A stretch of DNA of 64,000 bases from Candidatus Woesearchaeota archaeon (GCA_964410025.1 CAYPFA010000003.1:20880-84879), one strand, 5' to 3'; shown: positions 5,793-21,460, counted from the stretch's first letter. Notes: generated from the letters alone by a model not told the origin. Made by a program: numbers and translations.

Positions 5793-5913
5793 TGAGCCCA
5801 CCAAGATTTGAACTTGGGACCCCCGCCTTTCTTAGCATTTCTGCTTGAAATAATGTTTCTAACGAAACACGTTCTTATAAGAGCGGTGCTCTACCAGGCT
5901 AAGCTATGGGCTC
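5793..5913 (-). tRNA. Intron-containing tRNA, anticodon UAU (tRNA-Ile-like), ~47-nt intron at canonical 37/38 position
   Basis: Minus strand: GAGCCCA-TA-GCTT-AGCCTGGTA-GAGC-A-CCGCT-CTTATA[47-nt intron AGAACGTGTTTCGTTAGAAAC...GCTAAGAA]A-GGCGG-GGGTC-CCAAG-TTCAAAT-CTTGG-TGGGCTC-A. All stems pair. Mature length is 74 nt. Confidence 0.6.
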
Positions 5914-12751: not shown

Positions 12752-13156
12752 ATGATAAAAAGAGCGGTGATTGTTGAGACTCCATTTATGGGCGATGTTC
12801 CAAAAAATGTTATGTATGCTCGAGCCTACTGTAGAGATTGCATAGTAAATCACAATGAAGCCCCATTTTTATCTCATATAATTTATACACAGAGAGGAAT
12901 TTTGAATGATAACAATCCTCCAGAAAGAAATCTCGGAATTGAGGTCGGGTTATATTTCGGACAGTTTATGAAAGCATCAGTTGTTTATACAAATCTTGGA
13001 ATCTCTGGCGGAATGCAAAGAGGAATGGAGAGGGCAGAGAAGGAGGGTAGGGAAATAGTCGTTAGAAAATTAGACGACGATTGGGAAAAAGTTCAGAAGG
13101 AATTAATAGAAGGCATGCCAAATCATCCATTTGCTCTTCATCAAGTTTTCATGTAG
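12752..13156 (+). CDS. Hypothetical protein
   Basis: 134-aa ORF with no recognisable motif. Confidence 0.3.
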   Translation: MIKRAVIVETPFMGDVPKNVMYARAYCRDCIVNHNEAPFLSHIIYTQRGILNDNNPPERNLGIEVGLYFGQFMKASVVYTNLGISGGMQRGMERAEKEGREIVVRKLDDDWEKVQKELIEGMPNHPFALHQVFM

Positions 13157-13278: not shown

Positions 13279-13575
13279 ATGATTTCAGTATACGATATTG
13301 TAGAAAAAGCAGCAAAGACTGGAAAGATTGATAGAGGGATAAACGAAGTTACCAAGGCTATCGAAAGAGGCGTTGCGTTACTTGTTGTTTATGCATCTGA
13401 TGTTAATCCAAAAGAATTGACTCAACATTTACCTATTCTTGCAAAAGAAAAAGGAATAAAATGTATTGAAGCAGATTCAAAACAAAAGTTAGGACTTGCT
13501 GCAGGAATTAGTGTTTCAACTGGCGCAGTAGCTATAATACAAGCTGGCGACGCGAAACTTGATTCTTTACAATAA
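13279..13575 (+). CDS. rpl7ae: 50S ribosomal protein L7Ae (kink-turn binding)
   Basis: VEKAAKTGKIDRGINEVTKAIERGVALLVVYASDVNPKELTQHLPILAKEKGIKCIEADSKQKLGLAAGI matches L7Ae/L30e. Head of a conserved L7Ae-S28e-L24e cluster. Confidence 0.85.
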   Translation: MISVYDIVEKAAKTGKIDRGINEVTKAIERGVALLVVYASDVNPKELTQHLPILAKEKGIKCIEADSKQKLGLAAGISVSTGAVAIIQAGDAKLDSLQ

Positions 13576-13624
13576 TTAAAATTATTATTTGTAGGTAAGA
13601 AACTAATTAATTTAAATTCATAAC

Positions 13625-13921
13625 ATGGCTAAAGATCAACGAACAAAGGATGTACAAGGAAGTGCTACTAAGGGTTCTGATAAAATTATGGAAGCAGGCG
13701 GAGCTGTTCCCGGTATCGTTGAAGCTGTTGTCGGAAGAACTGGTTCTAGAGGCGAATTAACACAGGTTAAGGTTAGAGTTTTGCAAGGAAAAAATGCTGG
13801 AAAACAAATCAGAAGAAATGTTAGAGGACCAATCAAACCAAGAGATGTTTTAATGATGAGAGAAACTGAAATTGAAGCAAGAAAATTAATGAAAAGAATA
13901 CAAAAGGGAGCGTTCAGCTAA
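13625..13921 (+). CDS. rps28e: 30S ribosomal protein S28e
   Basis: VVGRTGSRGELTQVKVRVLQGKNAGKQIRRNVRGPIKPRDVLMMRETEIEARKL matches the S28e family. Confidence 0.85.
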   Translation: MAKDQRTKDVQGSATKGSDKIMEAGGAVPGIVEAVVGRTGSRGELTQVKVRVLQGKNAGKQIRRNVRGPIKPRDVLMMRETEIEARKLMKRIQKGAFS

Positions 13922-13922
13922 A

Positions 13923-14126
13923 ATGCCAAGATGCTCATTCTGCAAATCAACCTATGAATTTCCACTAGGTGTTACTGTAGTTCAAAAAGATGGAACAGCT
14001 AGAACATATTGCTCTTCTAAATGTAGAAAGAATTCTGAGATGGGAAGAGACAATCGAAAAGTTAAGTGGGTTACGAAGAATAAGGAAGCTGTAGAAGCTG
14101 AAAGATTAGAAAGAAAGAACGCTTAA
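13923..14126 (+). CDS. rpl24e: 50S ribosomal protein L24e
   Basis: MPRCSFCKSTYEFPLGVTVVQKDGTARTYCSSKCRKNSEMGRDNRKVKW matches the L24e zinc-binding family. Confidence 0.85.
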   Translation: MPRCSFCKSTYEFPLGVTVVQKDGTARTYCSSKCRKNSEMGRDNRKVKWVTKNKEAVEAERLERKNA

Positions 14127-14402
14127 ATGGAACAAGAAAAATACCAACTTCAAGAAAGCATAAAATATTCTACTGATTCGGGTTCAAAATATTCTTTACA
14201 ACGACCAATTTATTCTCCATCGATGATGTATTCCAGATTTAACAATTTATATAACGGAAGATATTAAATTCTTAAAATTAGCGTGATTAAACAGACAACT
14301 AACTGACAAATTACTCAGCCTATTTCATTCTGCTTCAAATAAACACCCTATTAGTAAATTAAAATTAATAAACTAAGATCCAAATAAACATTAATCAACT
14401 AA

Positions 14403-14771
14403 TTACTGACAATGACGACAGTTGATACTTGGACTGCCAGCATTATTGCATGAACATGGATCATCATACCAACACGTAGGACTGTCAGAGCTGCATATGT
14501 TCTTATCGCAAGAGCATTCACTGTCACATGCACAATGCTTCTCACATTGACAGTAATCGTTACAACGACAGTGTCTGCACTCACTATCGCACCTACACTC
14601 TGTATTGCAGTCGCACTTATAATCATCGCAACTTGAGCTTTGTGCATCGCAACTGCAACCAAAAGTTTTTTCTGCGATTGTTCCCTTGCCGCTTCTCAGC
14701 AAGACTGCTCTTATTAACTTAGAATCTTCTGGTGTTGTGCTTAAGATGAACCTGTCGTTTGGTTTTTGCAT
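14403..14771 (-). CDS. Cys-rich precursor-like peptide 1 (conserved leader + 22-Cys core with CxC[D/N]xxC heptads)
   Basis: MQKPNDRFILSTTPEDSKLIRAVLLRSGKGTIAEKTFG then CSCDAQSSSCDDYKCDCNTECRCDSECRHCRCNDYCQCEKHCACDSECSCDKNIC.... It is a paralog of ORF 15472..15789 and co-directional with the rSAM and peptidase. Confidence 0.6.
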   Translation of the reverse strand: MQKPNDRFILSTTPEDSKLIRAVLLRSGKGTIAEKTFGCSCDAQSSSCDDYKCDCNTECRCDSECRHCRCNDYCQCEKHCACDSECSCDKNICSSDSPTCWYDDPCSCNNAGSPSINCRHCQ

Positions 14772-14806
14772 TATATTTTATACTTTTTAGATTTAAATAA
14801 ATTGTG

Positions 14807-15469
14807 CTAAATAATTACTACTCCCCAGTCCAAAGCTGAGATGTCTCTAATTCTGTTAAAATCTGAAAATAGCATGTGCTTATTCGCGCCCGCAAAACTT
14901 GGACCAGAATTGTGATAAATTATTCCAGTAGAGTCATACCCTACCAAGGGAATATAATGTCCTCCAAAACGATTTACTTTTAAGAAGGAATCGTAATTTA
15001 ATAAGACGATGGGGATTCGCCCGCTGTCTATTTTCTTTAATAAAAATTCTAGGGGTGGGCGTGATGGTTTCTTCTGCGATAACTCGTCTGCAAAAACTTC
15101 TTTATTTATTTCTGCAACTTTTTCTAAATTTATTGAGGATAAAAGATTTTCTGCGAATTCTCCATAGAACTTTTTACTAGCTTGTCTTAATTGCTCTATA
15201 TCTGTAGGATCGCATAACATTGGATCTTTTATGAAATATTCTACCGGGACTCCTAGTTTTCTACAGGCGAGAACAATCTGAGTAGGCAGTGTCAATTCTT
15301 TTTCCTCGTGCCTAGTTAATTCATTTAGTTCTTCAAAGGAAAATTCTCTTTCGGGCAATCTGACTTTCAACGCGGACATCATCGCTGCCTGGGCGCAATT
15401 TCTTTTCTGGCTTAAAAAAAATGGAACTTGCATTTTATCTAATAATTTATCCAAAATAATCTCCACCAT
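14807..15469 (-). CDS. Papain-like Cys peptidase, C39-like (putative leader peptidase)
   Basis: 220 aa. N-terminal Q-x3-NCAQAAMMSAL resembles the C39 catalytic Cys motif (Q...CG.A.L). Downstream GGHYIPLVGYDSTG supplies candidate His/Asp. Confidence 0.5.
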   Translation of the reverse strand: MVEIILDKLLDKMQVPFFLSQKRNCAQAAMMSALKVRLPEREFSFEELNELTRHEEKELTLPTQIVLACRKLGVPVEYFIKDPMLCDPTDIEQLRQASKKFYGEFAENLLSSINLEKVAEINKEVFADELSQKKPSRPPLEFLLKKIDSGRIPIVLLNYDSFLKVNRFGGHYIPLVGYDSTGIIYHNSGPSFAGANKHMLFSDFNRIRDISALDWGVVII

Positions 15470-15471
15470 TT

Positions 15472-15789
15472 TTACTTCACACGGAAATCAAAATCATCAT
15501 AAGGGCATGCACCGTGATGCTCATTACAGCTACAATAATTATCACATCTGCATGGCTCTTTATAATCTACGCAAATACAATGTTTACATTGTGAATCGCA
15601 CCTACATTGTACGTTGCAGTCACATTGAGGATCGCAGTGACTATCACAACTTGAGCTTTGTGTGTCGCAACTGCAACCAAAAGTTTTTTCTGCAATTGTT
15701 CCCTTGCCACTTCTCAGCAAGACTGCTTTTATTAACTTAGAATCTTTATGTGTTGTACTTAATATGAACCTATCTTTTGGTTTTTGCAT
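15472..15789 (-). CDS. Cys-rich precursor-like peptide 2 (same leader, 16-Cys core). Start moved to internal ATG 15789 preceded by GGAGG.
   Basis: MQKPKDRFILSTTHKDSKLIKAVLLRSGKGTIAEKTFG then CSCDTQSSSCDSHCDPQCDCNVQCRCDSQCKHCICVDYKEPCRCDNYCSCNEHHGAC.... GGAGG 9 nt upstream of the internal Met. Overlaps the 3' end of the rSAM gene. Confidence 0.6.
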   Translation of the reverse strand: MQKPKDRFILSTTHKDSKLIKAVLLRSGKGTIAEKTFGCSCDTQSSSCDSHCDPQCDCNVQCRCDSQCKHCICVDYKEPCRCDNYCSCNEHHGACPYDDFDFRVK

Positions 15790-17200
15790 TGTCAATTTCC
15801 TCCGAGGCATTTAATCTTTGAAGTATTTGGCTTTTTAAAAGTCCTCTGTTAATCACGCATCTAGCATTATTTGTTGAGTCTAGAATTTTTCCTGATTGCT
15901 CCAATACCTTGGCCGGGCAGTCGCCTGCACAGTTATATTTTGCAAAACAATCTTCACAAAATTCCATATTTGTTACTTTTCTGTTTCGGAGATTTTCTAT
16001 GTTTTCTAAGTTGAAATCTATTTTGCCGGTCGTCTCATTGTATTGCCCAATCTTAAATGAATTAAAAATTGGGCTCTCTTCCCTACAAGCCTCAAGACAA
16101 GTAGTTACAAATCCCGTCGGAGTAATGAAAAAATTTCCACCGCATGCACCGCAAAATGTTTCACTGATCTTGTCTATCGAACCGCCTGAATAATAAAATG
16201 AAACTCCTAAATCTTTTGCTCTTTTTTCAGCAATAAGCATTTGTTCTAGAAAAACACCTGGGTCCGGTGCTTTGGCTCCAGTTGTTTGACATCGTCCGCA
16301 TTCAAATAAAGGTTCTAGATGAAAACTTTTGTTCCGAGATATTGAAGAGAAAAATTCTAAAATTTCTGGAATTCTCTTTACGCTATAGTCCGTTATTGTT
16401 GCCCGCATCCCATAGTTATAACTTTTTCCATCTTTTGCTTTGGCTTGATCAAGGTATTTAATTGTCCTAACTACATCATTGAAAGAACCCTGTCCGCCTT
16501 TTTTCGGTCTTTGCCTATTTTGAATATCTTCCGGTCCGTCTATGGAAATATTAATCCTATCAAAATTTTCTACTGCCCACTGCATTGTTTCTAAAGAATG
16601 AACTCCATTTGTTACTACATCTGCACGACTTTTAAGTCCAGCAGCAGATGACGTTTCTTTTAAATACGCAAGCGCATAGTTAATGAGTGGCAAATTACTA
16701 GACAATAAAGGTTCGCCTCCGCCATGAAAACCCACGTTAACATTATCCGATTTTTTTTTAAGTGCATTTTCGACAATAAAATCTATAGATGCCTTTGCTA
16801 TCTCTGGTTTTATAACTTGAGACAGATCGCCTGCACAAGCATAGCAATACTCACAATTAAGATTGCATCCAAATGTCGGTAGAAGCGTAACAGATGTAGG
16901 ACTATAATGTGTCTCATGGCAAGATGAGCAGGAGGATGATTTATTTTGTCCTTCCGGAACTAAAATTCTTGTCTTGAATAAATGTTCTGCCAATACAGGA
17001 TCTATTTCATATGGATTTGCCCCTTGTTGTATCTTGAAAAAAAAGTTTTCAACTCCTGGCGTAACCTCTACGACCGAGCCAGCAAGAGGAGCATAAAGAA
17101 TAGTTCTGTTTTCAACCGGAATCTTAAATAATTCGGAAGTTATTCTAAGCTTATCTTGGTCTGTTGCCATGAGTCTGATACTACTTTGGAGTTTCGTCAC
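15770..17200 (-). CDS. Radical SAM enzyme with C-terminal SPASM-like Cys-rich domain and ~100-aa N-terminal extension (putative RiPP maturase)
   Basis: CxxxCxxC at ~residue 112 (TFGCNLNCEYCYA). GGGEPLL motif. C-terminal CGACGGNFFITPTGFVTTCLEAC...CEDCFAKYNCAGDCPA auxiliary-cluster cysteines. Confidence 0.8.
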   Translation of the reverse strand: MTKLQSSIRLMATDQDKLRITSELFKIPVENRTILYAPLAGSVVEVTPGVENFFFKIQQGANPYEIDPVLAEHLFKTRILVPEGQNKSSSCSSCHETHYSPTSVTLLPTFGCNLNCEYCYACAGDLSQVIKPEIAKASIDFIVENALKKKSDNVNVGFHGGGEPLLSSNLPLINYALAYLKETSSAAGLKSRADVVTNGVHSLETMQWAVENFDRINISIDGPEDIQNRQRPKKGGQGSFNDVVRTIKYLDQAKAKDGKSYNYGMRATITDYSVKRIPEILEFFSSISRNKSFHLEPLFECGRCQTTGAKAPDPGVFLEQMLIAEKRAKDLGVSFYYSGGSIDKISETFCGACGGNFFITPTGFVTTCLEACREESPIFNSFKIGQYNETTGKIDFNLENIENLRNRKVTNMEFCEDCFAKYNCAGDCPAKVLEQSGKILDSTNNARCVINRGLLKSQILQRLNASEEIDNAKTKR

Positions 17201-17304
17201 TATTTAAAGTTTTCTTTGCGTATTTTTGAAAAAGAAAAATTTATCTTAAAAACATCCAGATGTTCGTTAACAAACTTTAAAAACAACATTAACATTTAAT
17301 TTTT

Positions 17305-18876
17305 ATGGCAGATATAAGGGCGGTGATAGCGGCAGTCGTGCCAGATCGCTATTCTGCGATAGATCCAGATCAAATAAAGAAAATAATTCATTCAAATGGG
17401 ATTGCTAAGGCAATAGAGAAAATCGAGAATAAATCCGAGGGTAAACCCAAAATAAAACCCCTTTCTTCTTATAGTCTTATTTACGACTCTCCACAAAATC
17501 AGCTCGAACCAGTATACTATTGGATTTTAGATTTTATGGAAAATTTGCCCGGCGTTAAGGTAGATAAAGTTGCAGATAATTTTATGGCCTCTCCGGGAAG
17601 CGGACAATTTTCAGAAATGGGCGCGAAGGCAACAGCGATGCAGCAACAGGCAACAAAACTTCTTGCTGATACGAATACTTTAGTAAAGACAATTCTAAAT
17701 CTAGTTTATGATTTAAAAGAATTTGAAATGAGACTTGAGCAATATAAGAGAGCAAATTCCAAGGATAAAAAAGAACAAGAAGAAGGAATGCTTGCATTAA
17801 AAAATATTTGGTTGGATCAAGTAGATTTGAAGAGAGGAAGGGGAAGTATTCATCAAATGTCTGCAGAAATGGGATACACTACTTTACGAGAAGCATTTTT
17901 AGTTGCCAATGATGTTGAAAGTTTAAAGAAAATGGCCGGTCCGGATGGAGTCATAAATGATTCGGTGCTTAGAGTGTTAATTCCGAGAATGGGTGAATTT
18001 TTAATTTGGAAAGATATGTCAGAAAAAGAATTAACAAAAAGATTTGAAATAGAAAAATCTTATTTAAAGTCTGAAGTCGAAAATTTAAAAATGTATACAA
18101 AATGGGCTCGTCCATATTTAAAAGCTGCAGAAGAATTAAGAATGAAGGGTTTTGAAAACCACGCAGCATTAGTAAGTGCTTTTTCTACTTCAATGTTTGA
18201 GCTTACCCTAATGGGAACAAGCAAGGCAAAAATGCAGCCAGTTTATGAAAAGGCCGGTTATAAATTAAAAAGAGATTATTCTGCAGTTCTTATCGTTTCT
18301 CTTAAATATAGAGGGCATCTCGGACAAAAGGCGGGACAGGGAGGACAGAGTGGTTACACATACTCTTTTGGCGGAAGATTTGATATAACATTTGATTGCT
18401 ATGCATTAAATTCTGAAGAAATGGCTTTAGTAAAAAAAACCATGGAAGATGCTGATATTGGAGACGGCATTACTCTTGTTGAAAGAAATACGGGTGTTGC
18501 TTTAGAACAACTCAAGGAAGATATAGATCGTTTCACGGGCGATAAAGAAAAGAAAAAAGAAGAAGAAAAAGCGAAAAAAGAAGATGACATAAATCCGTTC
18601 AGCGCCATATTTAATCTTTCAACGTTTTCATTCGGAGGGAAAAAAGAAGACAAAAAAGAAATTAAGTCTCCCAAGGATATAGAAAAAGATAATTTTGTAG
18701 AAAAAATAGTTAGAAAAGATGCAGCAGATAAAGCCAATACTTTTTTGTATTTAGTATATGATATTTATAAGAAAGCTCATGCAATGGCTTCCTCTCCAGA
18801 GAATTTTGACAACGGTAAAGTTGAAAAATCTGAAAAGGATATGGCAGGATTATTTAAAGAAACATTTTTGAATTAG
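17305..18876 (+). CDS. Large hypothetical protein, K/E-rich C-terminal third
   Basis: 523-aa ORF. No recognisable catalytic motif. Divergent from the rSAM gene. Confidence 0.4.
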   Translation: MADIRAVIAAVVPDRYSAIDPDQIKKIIHSNGIAKAIEKIENKSEGKPKIKPLSSYSLIYDSPQNQLEPVYYWILDFMENLPGVKVDKVADNFMASPGSGQFSEMGAKATAMQQQATKLLADTNTLVKTILNLVYDLKEFEMRLEQYKRANSKDKKEQEEGMLALKNIWLDQVDLKRGRGSIHQMSAEMGYTTLREAFLVANDVESLKKMAGPDGVINDSVLRVLIPRMGEFLIWKDMSEKELTKRFEIEKSYLKSEVENLKMYTKWARPYLKAAEELRMKGFENHAALVSAFSTSMFELTLMGTSKAKMQPVYEKAGYKLKRDYSAVLIVSLKYRGHLGQKAGQGGQSGYTYSFGGRFDITFDCYALNSEEMALVKKTMEDADIGDGITLVERNTGVALEQLKEDIDRFTGDKEKKKEEEKAKKEDDINPFSAIFNLSTFSFGGKKEDKKEIKSPKDIEKDNFVEKIVRKDAADKANTFLYLVYDIYKKAHAMASSPENFDNGKVEKSEKDMAGLFKETFLN

Positions 18877-18916
18877 CAACCGCTAAATAATTAAACTCTT
18901 CTAAATTGATTTATTT

Positions 18917-19537
18917 ATGGTTGAAGTAAAAATAAAAAAAAATTTAGATGACGAAGTTAAAAGTCTTGAGAAAAAATTAAACGAGCTTATTAAAAAAAAT
19001 TCCCCACAAAAAGAAAAAGATAATTCTGAAAAAAAATTAGATAAAAAAGAAGATTTGAAAAAAGAAACTATAGAAAATGAGTTGCCAGTAGAAGAAAATA
19101 ATTCCAGAGATTTTACATCTTCTTCATTAATGACATCGCAAAACATTTCTTTAGGTCCGGAAGGTTTAGGTTTTGCAAATTCCAGAGCAGGTTTACAGAA
19201 TACTCAAAATCTTGAAAAGAATCTTCAGTTCGTGGAAACAGCATCGGGAGAAAAAAAGCAAGAGGCGCTTTACAGTGAGGCAAGAAATAGCTATGAATCA
19301 TCCGATAACAATAGAAAATTAGTGCAGAATGTGCCAGACAATAATCCTCTTACAAGATCAATAGTAACATCAAACTCTTCTGGTCAGATGCGAGGATCTC
19401 GTGTAGTCGAAAATTCTTCCGGAGATTCTGAAGATAATCTTGAAGGCACAACAAAATATGCACCAGTTCAAATCAGCACAACAAACACTCTGCCGTGGGA
19501 AAGGCCTTCGGATAGGTTCAAAAAATACACAGGATAA
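18917..19537 (+). CDS. Hypothetical low-complexity (K/E/S/N-rich) protein
   Basis: 206-aa ORF, predicted disordered and coiled-coil-like. Confidence 0.3.
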   Translation: MVEVKIKKNLDDEVKSLEKKLNELIKKNSPQKEKDNSEKKLDKKEDLKKETIENELPVEENNSRDFTSSSLMTSQNISLGPEGLGFANSRAGLQNTQNLEKNLQFVETASGEKKQEALYSEARNSYESSDNNRKLVQNVPDNNPLTRSIVTSNSSGQMRGSRVVENSSGDSEDNLEGTTKYAPVQISTTNTLPWERPSDRFKKYTG

Positions 19538-19567
19538 CTTTAAATATATCCTCGCCGTTAATTATTT

Positions 19568-21460
19568 ATGGGTGATACTAGTTACGAAAATTTTTATGGC
19601 GGAGGAATCTCTAGTTTTGATTCCAATTATTCTTCAGGTGGAGCTTTTCTGGGAAATCATGATTATAAAATGTCAAATAATCTAGGATTTCCAGGCTCTG
19701 CTCAAACAGCAAATCAGCTCAAGGAAACCGTTAATGCAATCAAGCAGGGTGTGAAAGCATTCGAGGTTACAATGGTTAGTCCAGAAACTGCCGATCAAAT
19801 TCCCATACAAAATTTTGATGAAATGCGTGCGTTAATGAAATTAACTGGAGTCAAGCCATCCGTTCACGCGCCAATTATAGATCCATCGGGTTTCGAACAA
19901 CGAGCAGGATATAGCGAGGAGCATAGAAAAGAGGCTGAAAGAAAATTATTTGACACGCTAAAAAAAGCAAGCATGTTAGATAGGGAAAATAATGTTCCAG
20001 TCGTAATTCACTCGACAGCCAATGTTCAGGGCGCAGAATATCGTCCAGGAGACGAGTCAAAAGGAGAATCGAGATGGAATAGAGTTTCACTAGGTGTATT
20101 TAATAAACAGAGTAAACAAATCGCCGGAGTAATTCCAGAAGAAAGAGAATACGCTTTAGATATGAGTGCAAAAGATTATGCTAATGGCGGTAAACTAACG
20201 AAAGCAGAAGACATGATTGCAAAAGAAAATAAAAGCAGTTGGATAAAAGAAAAAGAGCACATAAATTATTACACACGTATAATGGATCAAGAGGTTGAAA
20301 GTTTTAATAGACAAGGGCTGGATAAGACTGGAGATATAGAAGATAAAGAAATACAAAAAAGTTTTTTAAGCAATATTAATCGTGCTCAGGGTCTCGTTGA
20401 AACGAATCAAGAACAGGTTAATCAGCTCTGGAATAAGCTCGGAAAATTTGGTACAGATGAACAAAGAGGAGAGCTAAAGAAAATTTCAGAAAAGTATGCG
20501 GATGATGTAAAAAAGTTTGATGAGAAAAAGAAGGAAGCAATTGATGATGAAGCCAAAAAAAGATTGATTGTTGAAAAGGCTCAATTTATAAATAGCGTCT
20601 ATGAAGATCTAAACAACATAACTAGCGGCTACTCCCCTCATGATAAAAATAAACTAGAAACTAAAGAGTCTGAAGAAAAATGGGGAGCTCCCAAGATACT
20701 TGTAAACGCAGAAGAATTTGCAAAGGAAAAGGCAGCTGAGACTTTGGGCGCAGTTGCATGGAGAGGATATAAAGAACTTGGAGGAGAAAAGGCTCCGATG
20801 ATTGCGGTAGAAAATATGTATTCAGGCATGGCTTTCTCGAGGGCAGAAGACATGGAGGGATTGATAAAGAATTCAAGAAAAAAATTTGTTGAGAATGCGA
20901 AAAAAAATGGTATGGATGAAAGAGATGCTAGTGCAGCAGCAGAAAAATTAATAGGAGTTACTTGGGACGTTGGACATCTTAATTTATTTAAAAAATCTGG
21001 ATTTACGGATAAGGATGTAATTGGTGAAACGGCAAAAATTGCGCCTTTAGTTAAACATGTTCATCTAACTGATAATTTTGGCTATTCAGATTCTCATCTC
21101 GCTCCCGGAATGGGAAATGTGCCATTTAAAGAAATTCTTAAAGAACTCGAGAGAACTGGAAAACTAGGCGATATGAGAAAGATTGTTGAGGCACCAGGTT
21201 TCTTCCAACATTTTCAAAAATCTCCTCACTCATGGACCATGGCGGCGCTAGGAAGCCCAATCTACGGCGGAATGATGGGTCCCTATTGGAATCAGGCATC
21301 GGGAGTTTCAAGTGGCGGCGGATATATGGGCGGACCTATGGCTTATCTTCCAGAGAAACATTTTTCAACCTACGGAAGCGGATTTTCATCCTTGCCAGCA
21401 GAACTGGGCGGACAACTTCCAGGGACACAATCGAGATTTAGTGGGACGCCGAATACTTAG
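19568..21460 (+). CDS. Xylose-isomerase-like TIM-barrel (sugar phosphate isomerase/epimerase/AP-endonuclease-2 fold) protein with a long K/E-rich insertion
   Basis: C-terminal VKHVHLTDNFGYSDSHLAPGMGNVPFKEILKELERTGKLGDMRKIVEAPGF matches the PF01261-type H-x-H-l-D...H-l-G-G-idf...GY-G...E pattern. N-terminal barrel-like start (FEVTMVSP...PSVHAPIIDPS). The middle ~200 aa is charged. Confidence 0.45.
   Translation: MGDTSYENFYGGGISSFDSNYSSGGAFLGNHDYKMSNNLGFPGSAQTANQLKETVNAIKQGVKAFEVTMVSPETADQIPIQNFDEMRALMKLTGVKPSVHAPIIDPSGFEQRAGYSEEHRKEAERKLFDTLKKASMLDRENNVPVVIHSTANVQGAEYRPGDESKGESRWNRVSLGVFNKQSKQIAGVIPEEREYALDMSAKDYANGGKLTKAEDMIAKENKSSWIKEKEHINYYTRIMDQEVESFNRQGLDKTGDIEDKEIQKSFLSNINRAQGLVETNQEQVNQLWNKLGKFGTDEQRGELKKISEKYADDVKKFDEKKKEAIDDEAKKRLIVEKAQFINSVYEDLNNITSGYSPHDKNKLETKESEEKWGAPKILVNAEEFAKEKAAETLGAVAWRGYKELGGEKAPMIAVENMYSGMAFSRAEDMEGLIKNSRKKFVENAKKNGMDERDASAAAEKLIGVTWDVGHLNLFKKSGFTDKDVIGETAKIAPLVKHVHLTDNFGYSDSHLAPGMGNVPFKEILKELERTGKLGDMRKIVEAPGFFQHFQKSPHSWTMAALGSPIYGGMMGPYWNQASGVSSGGGYMGGPMAYLPEKHFSTYGSGFSSLPAELGGQLPGTQSRFSGTPNT

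What the first reader, a model, noticed from the sequence alone, without database searches (positions are those of the whole stretch)
14403..17200. Candidate novel archaeal RiPP-type cluster: radical-SAM/SPASM enzyme, C39-like peptidase and two hyper-cysteine-rich precursor-like peptides
Four co-directional minus-strand genes sit between the conserved L7Ae-S28e-L24e cluster and a divergent hypothetical gene. The first (17200->15770) is a 476-aa radical-SAM protein. It has CNLNCEYC at ~residue 112, a GGGEPLL motif and a C-terminal Cys-rich auxiliary-cluster region (CGACGG...CLEAC...CEDC...CAGDC) typical of SPASM/twitch enzymes. The second (15789->15472) is a 105-aa ORF overlapping the rSAM 3' end, with its own GGAGG ribosome-binding site. 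The third (15469->14807) is a 220-aa papain-like peptidase with a C39-like Q-x3-NCAQAAMMSAL motif plus a candidate His/Asp pair. The fourth (14771->14403) is a 122-aa ORF. The two small ORFs share an almost identical ~40-aa N-terminal segment (MQKP[K/N]DRFILSTT..DSKLI[K/R]AVLLRSGKGTIAEKTFGCSCD.QSSSCD) and then diverge into cores with 16 and 22 Cys arranged as repeated C-x-C-[D/N/E]-x-x-C heptads. A conserved leader with a hypervariable Cys-rich core, a maturase carrying an N-terminal extension and a leader peptidase is the canonical logic of radical-SAM-modified RiPPs. Such clusters are rarely described in archaea and, to my knowledge, not in this kind of small-genome lineage.
Basis: partly seen in the sequence, partly recalled or inferred. 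Interest (0 to 1): 0.88.

Follow-up and report, generated by a model that had tools for sequence, protein, structure and literature searches.

The report
Cysteine-repeat radical-SAM peptide cassette, DPANN archaeon
A small-genome archaeon carries a four-gene cassette (iron-sulfur radical enzyme, cysteine protease, two peptides that are one-quarter cysteine) that belongs to a large family, with no curated model or paper found, of enzyme-tailored peptides present in many archaea and bacteria, whose chemistry and purpose are still unknown.

Summary
Four co-directional minus-strand genes encode a radical-SAM/SPASM enzyme, a 105-aa Cys-rich peptide, a C39-like cysteine peptidase and a 122-aa Cys-rich peptide.

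The RiPP reading is supported by comparative evidence:
- The rSAM has relatives in 264 species-level genomes.
- In 56 of 81 loci examined, it is followed directly by one to six ORFs with a homologous leader (M..KP[N/D][D/Y]R ... E-x-TF) and a core of C-x-C-[D/N/E]-x-x hexads.
- The peptidase family (invariant Cys25/His171, ComA-like fold) lies next to an rSAM/SPASM gene in all eight relatives whose contig shows the flank; a ninth, on a 1.2-kb contig, shows only a Cys-rich ORF.

The closest known enzymes are the thioether-forming ranthipeptide maturases (CteB, PapB, SCIFF). All curated cut-offs are missed by a wide margin, and neither Pfam nor NCBIfam has a model for the peptides.

The most likely mechanism is leader-guided, repeated Cys-to-Asp/Asn thioether cross-linking followed by leader removal. 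This is inferred, not shown.

The cassette is not archaea-specific and not unique. It is one DPANN branch of a family spanning many bacterial and archaeal phyla, for which I found no curated model and no paper. I rate it a new variant of a known kind, of moderate to high interest.

The parts
15770..17170 (-). Radical-SAM/SPASM peptide maturase. It is 466 aa from ATG 17170; the ORF is open back to GTG 17200. It carries an N-terminal domain of about 95 aa that precedes the rSAM core.
   Evidence: Pfam Radical_SAM E 1.8e-13. Best NCBIfam matches are SCIFF maturase, PapB, CefB and nif11 maturase, all far below cut-off. Best PDB match is CteB 5wgg, E 2e-41. CX3CX2C and the SPASM cysteines are invariant in 29 homologs.
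17201..17208 (-). TTTAAATA, an archaeal TATA-box-like element 30 nt upstream of the rSAM ATG. It sits in the 104-bp divergent intergenic region shared with the 523-aa gene.
   Evidence: Read directly from the sequence. Promoter function is inferred.
15472..15789 (-). Precursor-like peptide A, 105 aa. The leader is about 38 aa (MQKPKDRF...AEKTFG). The core is 67 aa with 16 Cys. Its start overlaps the rSAM 3' end by 20 nt.
   Evidence: Homologous leaders are seen.
15800..15804 (-). GGAGG, a Shine-Dalgarno-like element 10 nt upstream of the peptide A start codon.
   Evidence: Read from the sequence in the alignment.
14807..15469 (-). Stand-alone C39-like (papain-fold, clan CA) cysteine peptidase, 220 aa. 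The predicted triad is Cys25/His171/Asn187. No signal peptide or membrane segment is visible by inspection.
   Evidence: 135 family representatives. C25 and H171 are invariant in 50 sequences. 39 of 50 members hit PF09778, 29 hit Peptidase_C39_2 and 15 hit Peptidase_C39. The profile aligns to the ComA Cys and His. The AF2 model has pLDDT 91. Best fold matches are the ComA peptidase domain, Alr0975, 3erv, PCAT1 and LahT150.
14403..14771 (-). Precursor-like peptide B, 122 aa. It has the same leader as peptide A and a core of 84 aa with 22 Cys.
14790..14797 (-). TTTAAATC, a TATA-like element in the 35-nt gap before peptide B. It may be a separate promoter for a nearly leaderless transcript.
   Evidence: Read from the sequence. 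It is also flagged as an A/T hexamer pair. Function is inferred only.
17305..21460 (+). Divergent three-gene neighbour: 523 aa, 206 aa, and 630 aa with a xylose-isomerase-like TIM barrel. It stays next to the rSAM-peptide cassette in related archaea although the other flank changes. A functional link is unproven.
   Evidence: Adjacent in the window, L001, L002, L008, L009, L088 and L091. No Pfam or PDB assignment except AP_endonuc_2 and MJ1311.

Best explanation
This is a ribosomal-peptide tailoring cassette of the radical-SAM/SPASM type.

Proposed mechanism:
1. The two small genes encode precursors with a leader of about 38 residues (N-terminal KP[N/K]DR motif, C-terminal E-K-T-F-G). The core of 67-84 residues is built from C-x-C-[D/N/E]-x-x hexads.
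2. The enzyme binds the leader, probably through its N-terminal domain.
3. It then works along the core. A 5'-deoxyadenosyl radical abstracts a side-chain hydrogen from the Asp/Asn/Glu at hexad position 4. A neighbouring cysteine thiolate, held on an auxiliary Fe-S cluster, captures the radical.
4. The result is a ladder of small thioether (ranthionine-type) rings. Each hexad offers both a C-x-x-[D/N] unit and a [D/N]-x-x-C unit.
5. About half of the cysteines would stay free for disulfides or metal ligation.
6. The C39-like cysteine peptidase encoded between the two precursors then removes the leader, possibly after ...TFG.

Shown here: gene content, homology, catalytic residues, and conserved co-occurrence of the enzyme with precursors and with the peptidase.

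Inferred: leader binding, the thioether chemistry and its acceptor residue, the cleavage site, and the biological role (an intracellular or exported cross-linked, acidic, thiol-rich peptide).

My confidence that this is an rSAM-modified RiPP system is about 0.85. My confidence that the modification is Cys-to-Asp/Asn/Glu thioether formation is about 0.45.
For: rSAM:
- The best curated-model matches are all Cys-directed peptide maturases: SCIFF 5e-33, PapB 7e-32, CefB 2e-30.
- The best solved structure is the ranthipeptide synthase CteB, E 2e-41, aligned over rSAM core and SPASM.
- The CX3CX2C and SPASM cysteines are invariant in 29 homologs.
- Full-length RiPP maturase models align from residue 9-30 onward, so the N-terminal domain is shared with them.

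Precursors:
- In 56 of 81 related loci, one to six same-strand ORFs with at least two CxC motifs lie just downstream of the rSAM, typically -60 to +60 bp from its stop.
- 38 of 74 candidate ORFs carry the N-terminal P[NDSP][DYN][RS] motif.
- Hexad position 4 is D/N/E in 89% of archaeal/CPR hexads and N/D/E/Q in 83% of bacterial hexads. The other non-Cys positions differ between lineages.

Known chemistry of the nearest enzymes is Cys-Asp S-C-beta (PapB, QhpD), Cys-Glu S-C-gamma, Cys-Thr (CteB) and Cys-Asn in NxxC motifs (PMC11002830; PMC11851443).

Peptidase:
- Invariant Cys25/His171, with Asp/Asn at His+16 as in ComA.
- ComA, PCAT1 and LahT150 fold matches.
- Relatives lie beside an rSAM/SPASM gene in all eight contexts that show the flank. 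One contig repeats the window's exact order rSAM-peptide-peptidase-peptide.
- The ninth context, L093, is a 1.2-kb contig. It shows a Cys-rich ORF directly upstream of the peptidase but not the rSAM.

Operon-like packing: 20-nt overlap, then 2-nt and 35-nt gaps.
Against: - No modification has been observed, and nothing here proves the peptides are substrates.
- The rSAM misses every curated equivalog cut-off by a wide margin (114.6 vs 425 bits for SCIFF; 110.9 vs 340 for PapB). The chemistry therefore cannot be transferred with confidence.
- The N-terminal domain gives no PqqD/RRE hit in Pfam.
- The peptidase is absent from most loci of the family, including the closest ones, L001, L002 and L008. 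Leader removal by it is not a general feature.
- The precursors lack a double-glycine site.
- No transporter or immunity gene lies in or near the cassette.
- With two Cys per hexad and only one obvious acceptor, half the cysteines are unexplained.
- The composition is also what a metal-binding peptide would look like.
Confidence: 0.6

Rival explanations
1. The end product is mainly a metal- or iron-sulfur-binding peptide, a leader-delivered metallothionein-like molecule. The rSAM adds only a few rigidifying links, or some other modification, and the free CxC thiols together with Asp and His do the work. This reading overlaps with the best explanation. It differs on what matters functionally.
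For: The cores are 24-26% Cys in C-x-C and C-x-x-C arrangements. They are rich in Asp and contain His. There is no transporter or immunity gene in the cassette. In about 30 bacterial loci of the same family, a PqqD-like protein with a twin-arginine signal sits just upstream of the rSAM. That would fit export of a folded or cofactor-loaded cargo. The peptidase model also resembles the phytochelatin-synthase-like Alr0975.
Against: No metallothionein family in Pfam or NCBIfam matches the peptides. A metallothionein needs no leader, rSAM or peptidase, yet all three co-occur. No metal-homeostasis genes are nearby. The Alr0975 similarity is at the level of the common papain fold, with TM about 0.49.
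Confidence: 0.25
2. It is an rSAM RiPP, but the chemistry is different. Possibilities are alpha-carbon thioethers (sactionine), Cys oxidation to formylglycine or a thioaldehyde, epimerisation, or Cys-Cys or C-C links.
For: The enzyme is below cut-off for every characterised family. SPASM enzymes with similar scores include sactisynthases, anSME and cyclophane formers. Hexad position 6 is Val in 69% of bacterial hexads, so another acceptor is possible there.
Against: The only non-Cys hexad position conserved across both archaeal and bacterial branches is the D/N/E position. The three best model matches and the best structure match are non-alpha thioether formers or their close relatives.
Confidence: 0.2
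3. The 220-aa protein is not the leader peptidase. It may act as a transpeptidase or ligase, an immunity or self-protection factor, or a protease for another substrate.
For: It is missing from most loci of the Cys-repeat family. There is no double-glycine site in the leaders. The window protein itself is below every Pfam and NCBIfam cut-off. There is a fold match to a phytochelatin-synthase-like acyl-enzyme former.
Against: The Cys/His/Asp(Asn) triad is conserved. The best fold and profile matches are bacteriocin-leader peptidase domains. The family tracks rSAM-plus-small-peptide cassettes of two different cargo types, which is what a leader-directed protease would do.
Confidence: 0.15
4. It is not a RiPP system. 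The Cys-rich ORFs are unmodified small proteins or not genes at all, and the rSAM has another substrate, for example as a sulfatase maturase.
For: There is no experimental evidence of expression or modification. Some gene callers miss or truncate the small ORFs: JGI-aa and 82-aa genes in L004 and L006.
Against: Leader and core are conserved across phyla and always sit directly downstream of the rSAM. The leader shows 7 synonymous against 5 non-synonymous codon differences at 91% nt identity. There is no sulfatase signature in any long ORF of the window. The anSME model scores 73.7 against a cut-off of 349.
Confidence: 0.05

Closest known systems
Ranthipeptide systems: SCIFF/CteA-CteB (thermocellin) and PapA-PapB (freyrasin)
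   Same: An rSAM/SPASM maturase with an N-terminal extension sits next to a Cys-rich precursor. These are the best model and structure matches. Freyrasin has six repeated Cys-Asp S-C-beta rings, and PapB tolerates different ring sizes (PMC11002830). That is the closest precedent for a repeated Cys/Asp motif.
   Different: Scores are only about a quarter to a third of the family cut-offs. No SCIFF precursor model matches the peptides. The cores are much longer (67-84 aa against roughly 20-45) and carry 16-26 Cys in a C-x-C-[D/N]-x-x hexad, with two Cys per repeat. The leader motifs (KP[N/D][D/Y]R, E-x-TF) are different. Several precursors are arrayed in tandem.
NxxC peptides and NxxcB (streptococcal beta-thioether RiPPs)
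   Same: An N-x-x-C unit is cross-linked from Asn C-beta to Cys S by an rSAM/SPASM enzyme (PMC11851443). Every hexad here contains a [D/N]-x-x-C unit.
   Different: NxxC precursors are short quorum-sensing-linked peptides with a single motif. No specific sequence relationship to NxxcB was detected or tested here.
QhpD and the quinohemoprotein amine dehydrogenase gamma subunit
   Same: A SPASM rSAM makes several Cys-Asp and Cys-Glu thioethers in one polypeptide (PMC11002830). The model TIGR03906 matches at 6e-21.
   Different: That substrate is an enzyme subunit with a quinone cofactor, not a leader-bearing repeat peptide. The score is far below cut-off (74.5 vs 453).
C39 bacteriocin-processing peptidase domains (ComA, PCAT1, LahT)
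   Same: Papain-like fold, catalytic Cys and His, and Asp/Asn 16 residues after the His. They are genetically tied to ribosomal peptide precursors.
   Different: The protein here is stand-alone, soluble and 220 aa, with an inserted helical region of about 70 residues. It is not fused to an ABC transporter. It is closer to PF09778 and Peptidase_C39_2 than to PF03412. The leaders lack a Gly-Gly site.
Metallothioneins
   Same: Cys content is about 25%, with C-x-C and C-x-x-C spacing.
   Different: No family match. Metallothioneins have no leader, no maturase and no peptidase.

Membership tests
Radical SAM / SPASM peptide maturases | CX3CX2C cluster motif and a radical SAM core domain | tested here: met
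   C112/C116/C119. PF04055 scores 51.5 bits against a cut-off of 29.5. The cysteines are invariant in 29 homologs.
Radical SAM / SPASM peptide maturases | C-terminal SPASM seven-cysteine motif (CX9-15GX4C ... CX2CX5CX3C ... C) for two auxiliary clusters | tested here: met
   C350...G363-x4-C368, C415/C418/C424/C428 and C448 are present and invariant. The Pfam SPASM model itself scores 15.1 against a cut-off of 21.5. The feature is therefore met by motif and by the CteB alignment, not by Pfam score.
Radical SAM / SPASM peptide maturases | N-terminal RiPP recognition element (PqqD-like) | tested here: inconclusive
   No PqqD hit for eight N-terminal domains at E up to 10. However, full-length RiPP maturase models (TIGR04463, CefB, geopeptide, nif11) align from residues 9-32.
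Radical SAM / SPASM peptide maturases | A small precursor gene adjacent to the enzyme, conserved across genomes | tested here: met
   56 of 81 loci have CxC-rich ORFs just downstream on the same strand.
Ranthipeptides (SCIFF / PapB type) | Maturase reaches the curated equivalog score (TIGR03974, NF047865) | tested here: not met
   114.6 vs 425 bits and 110.9 vs 340 bits.
Ranthipeptides (SCIFF / PapB type) | Precursor belongs to the SCIFF family or another curated ranthipeptide precursor family | tested here: not met
   No NCBIfam or Pfam family matches either peptide, or five bacterial relatives, at E up to 0.1. The single exception is a spurious 0.093 MshL hit on one bacterial peptide.
Ranthipeptides (SCIFF / PapB type) | Thioether between Cys sulfur and a non-alpha carbon of the acceptor residue | not testable with these tools
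   Needs mass spectrometry and NMR of the modified peptide.
Peptidase family C39 (clan CA) | Catalytic Cys and His, with Asp/Asn as the third residue | tested here: met
   C25 and H171 are invariant in 50 sequences. They align to ComA Cys17 and His96. N187 (Asp in most relatives) lies at His+16.
Peptidase family C39 (clan CA) | Papain-like fold resembling bacteriocin-processing domains | tested here: met
   The model has pLDDT 91. Foldseek matches: ComA 5xe9 E 3.5e-5 (TM on target 0.71), 3erv, PCAT1, 6mpz.
Peptidase family C39 (clan CA) | Reaches the Pfam PF03412 or PF13529 gathering score | tested here: not met
   The window protein hits only PF09778 at 16.4 vs 28.1 bits. Relatives do hit C39 models at E <= 0.01: 29 of 50 for PF13529 and 15 of 50 for PF03412.
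Peptidase family C39 (clan CA) | Substrate leader ends in Gly-Gly, Gly-Ala or Gly-Ser | tested here: not met
   The leaders end ...AEKTFG-CSC, with a single Gly. Other loci have TF followed by C, K, S or P.
Anaerobic sulfatase-maturating enzymes | Equivalog score and a sulfatase substrate with a C/S-x-P-x-R motif nearby | tested here: not met
   TIGR03942 scores 73.7 vs 349. There is no sulfatase signature in any ORF of at least 150 aa in the 64-kb window, and no sulfatase among the neighbours.
Metallothioneins | Membership of a metallothionein sequence family, and metal-thiolate clusters | tested here: not met
   No Pfam or NCBIfam match. Metal binding itself cannot be tested here.

The most novel reading that the evidence does not exclude
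The C-x-C-[D/N]-x-x peptides may define a RiPP class of their own, present from DPANN and CPR episymbionts to Bacteroidota, Desulfobacterota, Planctomycetota and Clostridia. I found no curated model or paper for it.

On this reading, the products are long ladder-like poly-thioether peptides that keep a second set of free thiols. They would act as ribosomally made, enzyme-rigidified metal or redox chelators rather than as antibiotics.

In the small-genome archaea, the cassette would be a swappable module. The same peptidase and the same genomic slot, beside an unknown conserved three-gene unit, take either Cys-repeat cargo or His/Asp/Tyr-repeat cargo. In bacteria, the cargo would leave the cell by riding on a twin-arginine-tagged recognition protein.
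Probability: 0.2. Interest if true: 0.8.

Novelty: new variant of a known kind. Interest (0 to 1): 0.6.

Why it matters
No natural product from a DPANN archaeon has been characterised. A recent survey only counts predicted clusters (PMC12144867).

This cassette is small (2.8 kb, four genes) and self-contained. Its predictions are clear: a mass loss per cross-link, Asp/Asn acceptors, and one cleavage site. The question of whether these reduced-genome archaea make tailored peptides therefore becomes directly testable by heterologous expression.

The comparative work also turns one odd locus into a family. At least 56 loci in many phyla share the leader and the hexad core, and neither Pfam nor NCBIfam has a model for peptide or enzyme.

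If the chemistry is a repeated thioether ladder on a core of 65-85 residues with 16-26 cysteines, it would be the most densely cross-linked rSAM peptide known to me. It could also be useful as a scaffold or a metal binder.

Tried and rejected
- anSME or sulfatase maturase reading: rejected. There is no sulfatase motif in the window, the score is far below cut-off, and no sulfatase is nearby.
- Chance or antisense ORFs: the overlapping ORFs in the Cys-rich regions (14399-14662 minus strand in another frame, 14528-14722 plus, 15507-15740 plus) are by-products of the TGY-rich repeats. They have no conserved counterparts.
- PqqD/RRE assignment of the N-terminal domain by Pfam: no hit, so this is left open.
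- Single-sequence structure prediction of the peptidase failed (pLDDT 36). The alignment-based run succeeded.
- A word-indexed homolog search for the peptidase found only itself. The exhaustive HMMER search found 135 representatives.
- Literature: eight searches found nothing on this family. They covered sequence motifs such as CAPVH, CVPVH and YWYPN, Cys-rich precursor phrases, CXC with radical SAM, metallothionein with radical SAM, ranthipeptide with DPANN taxa, and twin-arginine with PqqD. Hudson et al. 2019 (PMC6622460) is not held. The absence of a description therefore applies only to the searchable library.
- Organism name: exact look-ups returned no taxon. The DPANN/Pacearchaeota-like assignment rests on the named nearest relatives and a rough NJ tree.
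- A homolog of the Ser-rich coiled-coil protein that flanks the cassette in L001, L002 and L088 is not present in the window.

Full report
**1. What is in the sequence**

Between the archaeal ribosomal-protein genes L7Ae-S28e-L24e (13279-14126, plus strand) and a divergent 523-aa gene (17305-18876) lie four tightly packed minus-strand ORFs:
- an rSAM gene (15770-17200);
- a small ORF (15472-15789, or 15810 with the alternative start);
- a 220-aa ORF (14807-15469);
- a second small ORF (14403-14771).

The rSAM 3' end overlaps the first small ORF by 20 nt. The next two junctions are gaps of 2 nt and 35 nt.

The window is 30-37% G+C. It carries archaeal/eukaryotic-type ribosomal proteins and a 121-nt tRNA hit that ARAGORN does not call, which probably contains an intron. 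It is therefore archaeal.

The nearest named relatives of the rSAM are Pacearchaeota, Woesearchaeota and Nanoarchaeota MAGs. A DPANN origin is therefore likely.

The two peptides have 16 and 22 Cys. Against a 1.07% Cys background, P is about 4e-14 and 1e-20. They share a leader that is 91% identical at the DNA level, with 7 synonymous and 5 non-synonymous codon differences.

Minor corrections:
- The rSAM probably starts at ATG 17170 (466 aa, the public gene call). A TTTAAATA box lies 30 nt upstream.
- The repeat unit is a hexad, C-x-C-[D/N/E]-x-x.

**2. The enzyme**

Pfam finds a radical SAM core above cut-off and a SPASM domain just below it. The CX3CX2C triad and the complete SPASM cysteine pattern are present, and they are invariant in 29 homologs of 38-57% identity.

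Among 18,950 NCBIfam models, the best matches are all peptide maturases acting on Cys-rich peptides: SCIFF maturase (5e-33), PapB (7e-32), CefB (2e-30) and the nif11-peptide maturase (6e-30). Every score is a quarter to a third of the curated cut-off, so the protein belongs to none of these families.

A family profile finds the ranthipeptide synthase CteB as the best solved structure (5wgg, E 2e-41). anSME follows twenty orders of magnitude behind.

No sulfatase signature exists in any long ORF of the window, and none of the called neighbours is a sulfatase.

The N-terminal domain of about 95 residues gives no PqqD hit. Several full-length RiPP maturase models do align from residues 9-32. A recognition-element role is plausible but not established.

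**3. The peptides are a conserved family tied to the enzyme**

A word-indexed search of 5.8 billion proteins found only three relatives of peptide B, which at first suggested a near-orphan. Context analysis changed this picture.

The rSAM has 547 database relatives. It also has relatives in 264 species-level genomes.

I extracted ORFs from 81 non-redundant loci. In 56 of them, one to six same-strand ORFs with at least six Cys and at least two CxC motifs begin within a few dozen bases of the rSAM stop codon.

These ORFs share three features:
- an N-terminal M-x(0-8)-P-[N/D/S/P]-[D/Y/N]-[R/S] motif (window: MQKP[K/N]DR);
- a leader end of E-[D/E/K]-[K/R]-T-F in archaea and CPR, or PG[L/M]ET[F/Y]F in bacteria;
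- a core of C-x-C-x-x-x hexads.

The closest loci carry four (L001) and six (L002) such genes in tandem.

Position-specific counts were made on 47 archaeal/CPR hexads and 48 bacterial hexads. Besides the two Cys, only position 4 is conserved in both groups: D/N/E in 89% and N/D/E/Q in 83% respectively. Positions 2 and 6 are lineage-specific, for example S/T and Val in bacteria.

A block C[RS]CD[SA][QE]C[KR]HC[RI]C recurs in both window peptides, in L001 and L002, and in a Parcubacteria genome. A related CKHCRCVSDCRC stretch occurs in L093. The cores are therefore constrained, not freely variable.

Neither Pfam nor NCBIfam has a model for these peptides, for their bacterial counterparts, or for the rSAM. 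Eight literature searches found no description.

**4. The peptidase**

On its own, the 220-aa protein scores only weakly (PF09778 at E 0.006; a C39 NCBIfam model at E 0.0075). The word-indexed search found nothing but the protein itself.

An exhaustive HMMER scan of 1.84 billion representatives found 135 relatives. In an alignment of 50, only Cys25 and His171 are invariant. Of those 50 members:
- 39 hit PF09778;
- 29 hit Peptidase_C39_2;
- 15 hit Peptidase_C39.

The family profile aligns Cys25 and His171 to the catalytic Cys and His of the ComA peptidase domain. The residue 16 positions after the His, as in ComA, is Asp in most members and Asn187 here.

An alignment-based AlphaFold model reached pLDDT 91. 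Its best matches in the PDB are:
- the ComA peptidase domain (E 3.5e-5, TM 0.71 on the target);
- the phytochelatin-synthase-like Alr0975;
- a Bacillus C39-like protein;
- PeiR, PCAT1 and LahT150.

It is therefore a stand-alone clan-CA, C39-like cysteine peptidase.

Context is the strongest argument that it serves the cassette. All eight relatives whose contig shows the flank lie beside an rSAM/SPASM gene, usually with one to four small ORFs in between: L009, L088, L089, L090, L091, L092, the P0133 contig and L094.
- The P0133 contig repeats the window's order rSAM(453 aa)-103 aa-peptidase-110 aa.
- L093 is a 1.2-kb contig that does not reach an rSAM. It shows a Cys-repeat ORF directly upstream of the peptidase.

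The peptidase is absent from L001, L002, L008 and from the bacterial loci. It is an accessory of some archaeal branches, not a universal part of the family.

**5. How it most likely works**

The nearest characterised enzymes make thioethers from Cys sulfur to side-chain carbons (PMC11002830; PMC11851443):
- PapB and QhpD link Cys to Asp C-beta, and to Glu C-gamma.
- CteB links Cys to Thr C-gamma.
- NxxcB links Cys to Asn C-beta within an N-x-x-C unit.

Each hexad here offers both C-x-x-[D/N] (Cys1 to position 4) and [D/N]-x-x-C (position 4 to the next Cys1).

I therefore propose the following sequence. The enzyme binds the leader. It then forms four-residue thioether rings repeatedly along the core, up to about 8-10 in peptide B. 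The C39-like peptidase finally removes the leader. The cut may fall after ...TFG, but that site is a guess, because relatives lack a conserved Gly there.

The second Cys of each hexad is left over. It may form disulfides or bind metal. This is why a metallothionein-like function is kept as a partly overlapping rival.

No transporter or immunity gene is present, so whether the product is exported is unknown.

Shown: homology, motifs and co-occurrence. Inferred: every chemical step.

**6. Comparison with what is known, and novelty**

The logic (leader, rSAM/SPASM, Cys-rich core, C39-type protease) is the established logic of sactipeptides and ranthipeptides. Predicted rSAM RiPP clusters have already been counted in DPANN genomes, with none characterised (PMC12144867).

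What is new relative to curated families:
- the precursor family itself (leader motifs, hexad core, 16-26 Cys over 40-95 residues, tandem arrays);
- an rSAM clade outside all curated equivalogs;
- a dedicated stand-alone peptidase family.

A rough NJ tree places the window in a DPANN-dominated clade. CPR and a few Bacteroidota and Planctomycetota sequences are interleaved in it, which points to transfer between small-genome archaea and bacteria. Two large bacterial clades have their own accessory genes.

I rate it a new variant of a known kind.

**7. Verdict**

- Observation: confirmed.
- Interpretation: supported at the genomic level.
- Chemistry and role: open.
- Interest: 0.6.

Noticed in passing
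window 17305-21460 (+); also L001 4883-9020, L002 9387-13389, L008 10730-14990, L009 10908-14791, L088 1-3379, L091 1-2482: A three-gene unit stays directly beside the rSAM-peptide cassette in seven DPANN loci. It comprises a coiled-coil-rich protein of about 510-560 aa with no family, a protein of about 205 aa with no family, and a protein of about 610-660 aa with a xylose-isomerase-like TIM barrel (AP_endonuc_2, weak MJ1311 match). The orientation flips, the other flank differs, and the cassette type changes, yet the adjacency holds. Its function is unknown, and a link to the cassette is possible.
   Followed up: partly
L088 3464-5639; L089 1022-3044; L090 2444-4420; L091 2566-4618; L092 222-3432: A second cargo class uses the same peptidase family. 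A short SPASM rSAM (365-410 aa, no N-terminal domain) is followed by one to four peptides. These peptides have a leader ..NPKLRK..R.REF[L/M]F[G/S][H/Y][S/G]D and a core rich in His, Asp, Tyr and Ser (HSDY/YSDY repeats) with almost no Cys. In L088 and L091 this cassette occupies the same slot beside the three-gene unit as the Cys-repeat cassette does in the window.
   Followed up: partly
L053 7520-7978; L036 4727-5173; L085 4997-5464 (about 30 bacterial loci): In the bacterial branches of the family, a protein of about 150 aa lies immediately upstream of the rSAM. It combines a twin-arginine (TAT) signal with a PqqD-like domain, which is an unusual pairing for a RiPP recognition protein. About 20 of these loci also carry two Peptidase_U32 (UbiU-like) genes and a TPR membrane protein. 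The Bacteroidota/Rhodothermales branch carries a beta-propeller protein with a T9SS sorting tail.
   Followed up: partly
window 5793-5913 (-): Rfam finds a tRNA spanning 121 nt (53 bits) that ARAGORN does not report. It is probably an intron-containing archaeal tRNA.
   Followed up: no
window 12752-13156 (+): A 134-aa DUF7768 protein (E 3e-24) is inserted between the ribosomal protein S2 gene and the L7Ae-S28e-L24e genes.
   Followed up: no
L004 7461-7604 and 8524-8772; L006 2310-2453 and 3373-3621: The JGI gene calls for the same DNA truncate both Cys-rich precursors to 47 aa and 82 aa. The Logan calls give the full 105/112 aa and 122 aa. Such peptides are therefore easily missed or mis-called in public annotations, which may explain why the family has no curated model.
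   Followed up: no
L001 1533-1934 (-); L002 5452-5877 (-); L088 5680-5991 (+): A Ser/Thr-rich protein of about 100-140 aa with a C-terminal coiled coil (..LLEKKMDRFERK) flanks the cassette in three relatives. It has no counterpart in the window.
   Followed up: yes
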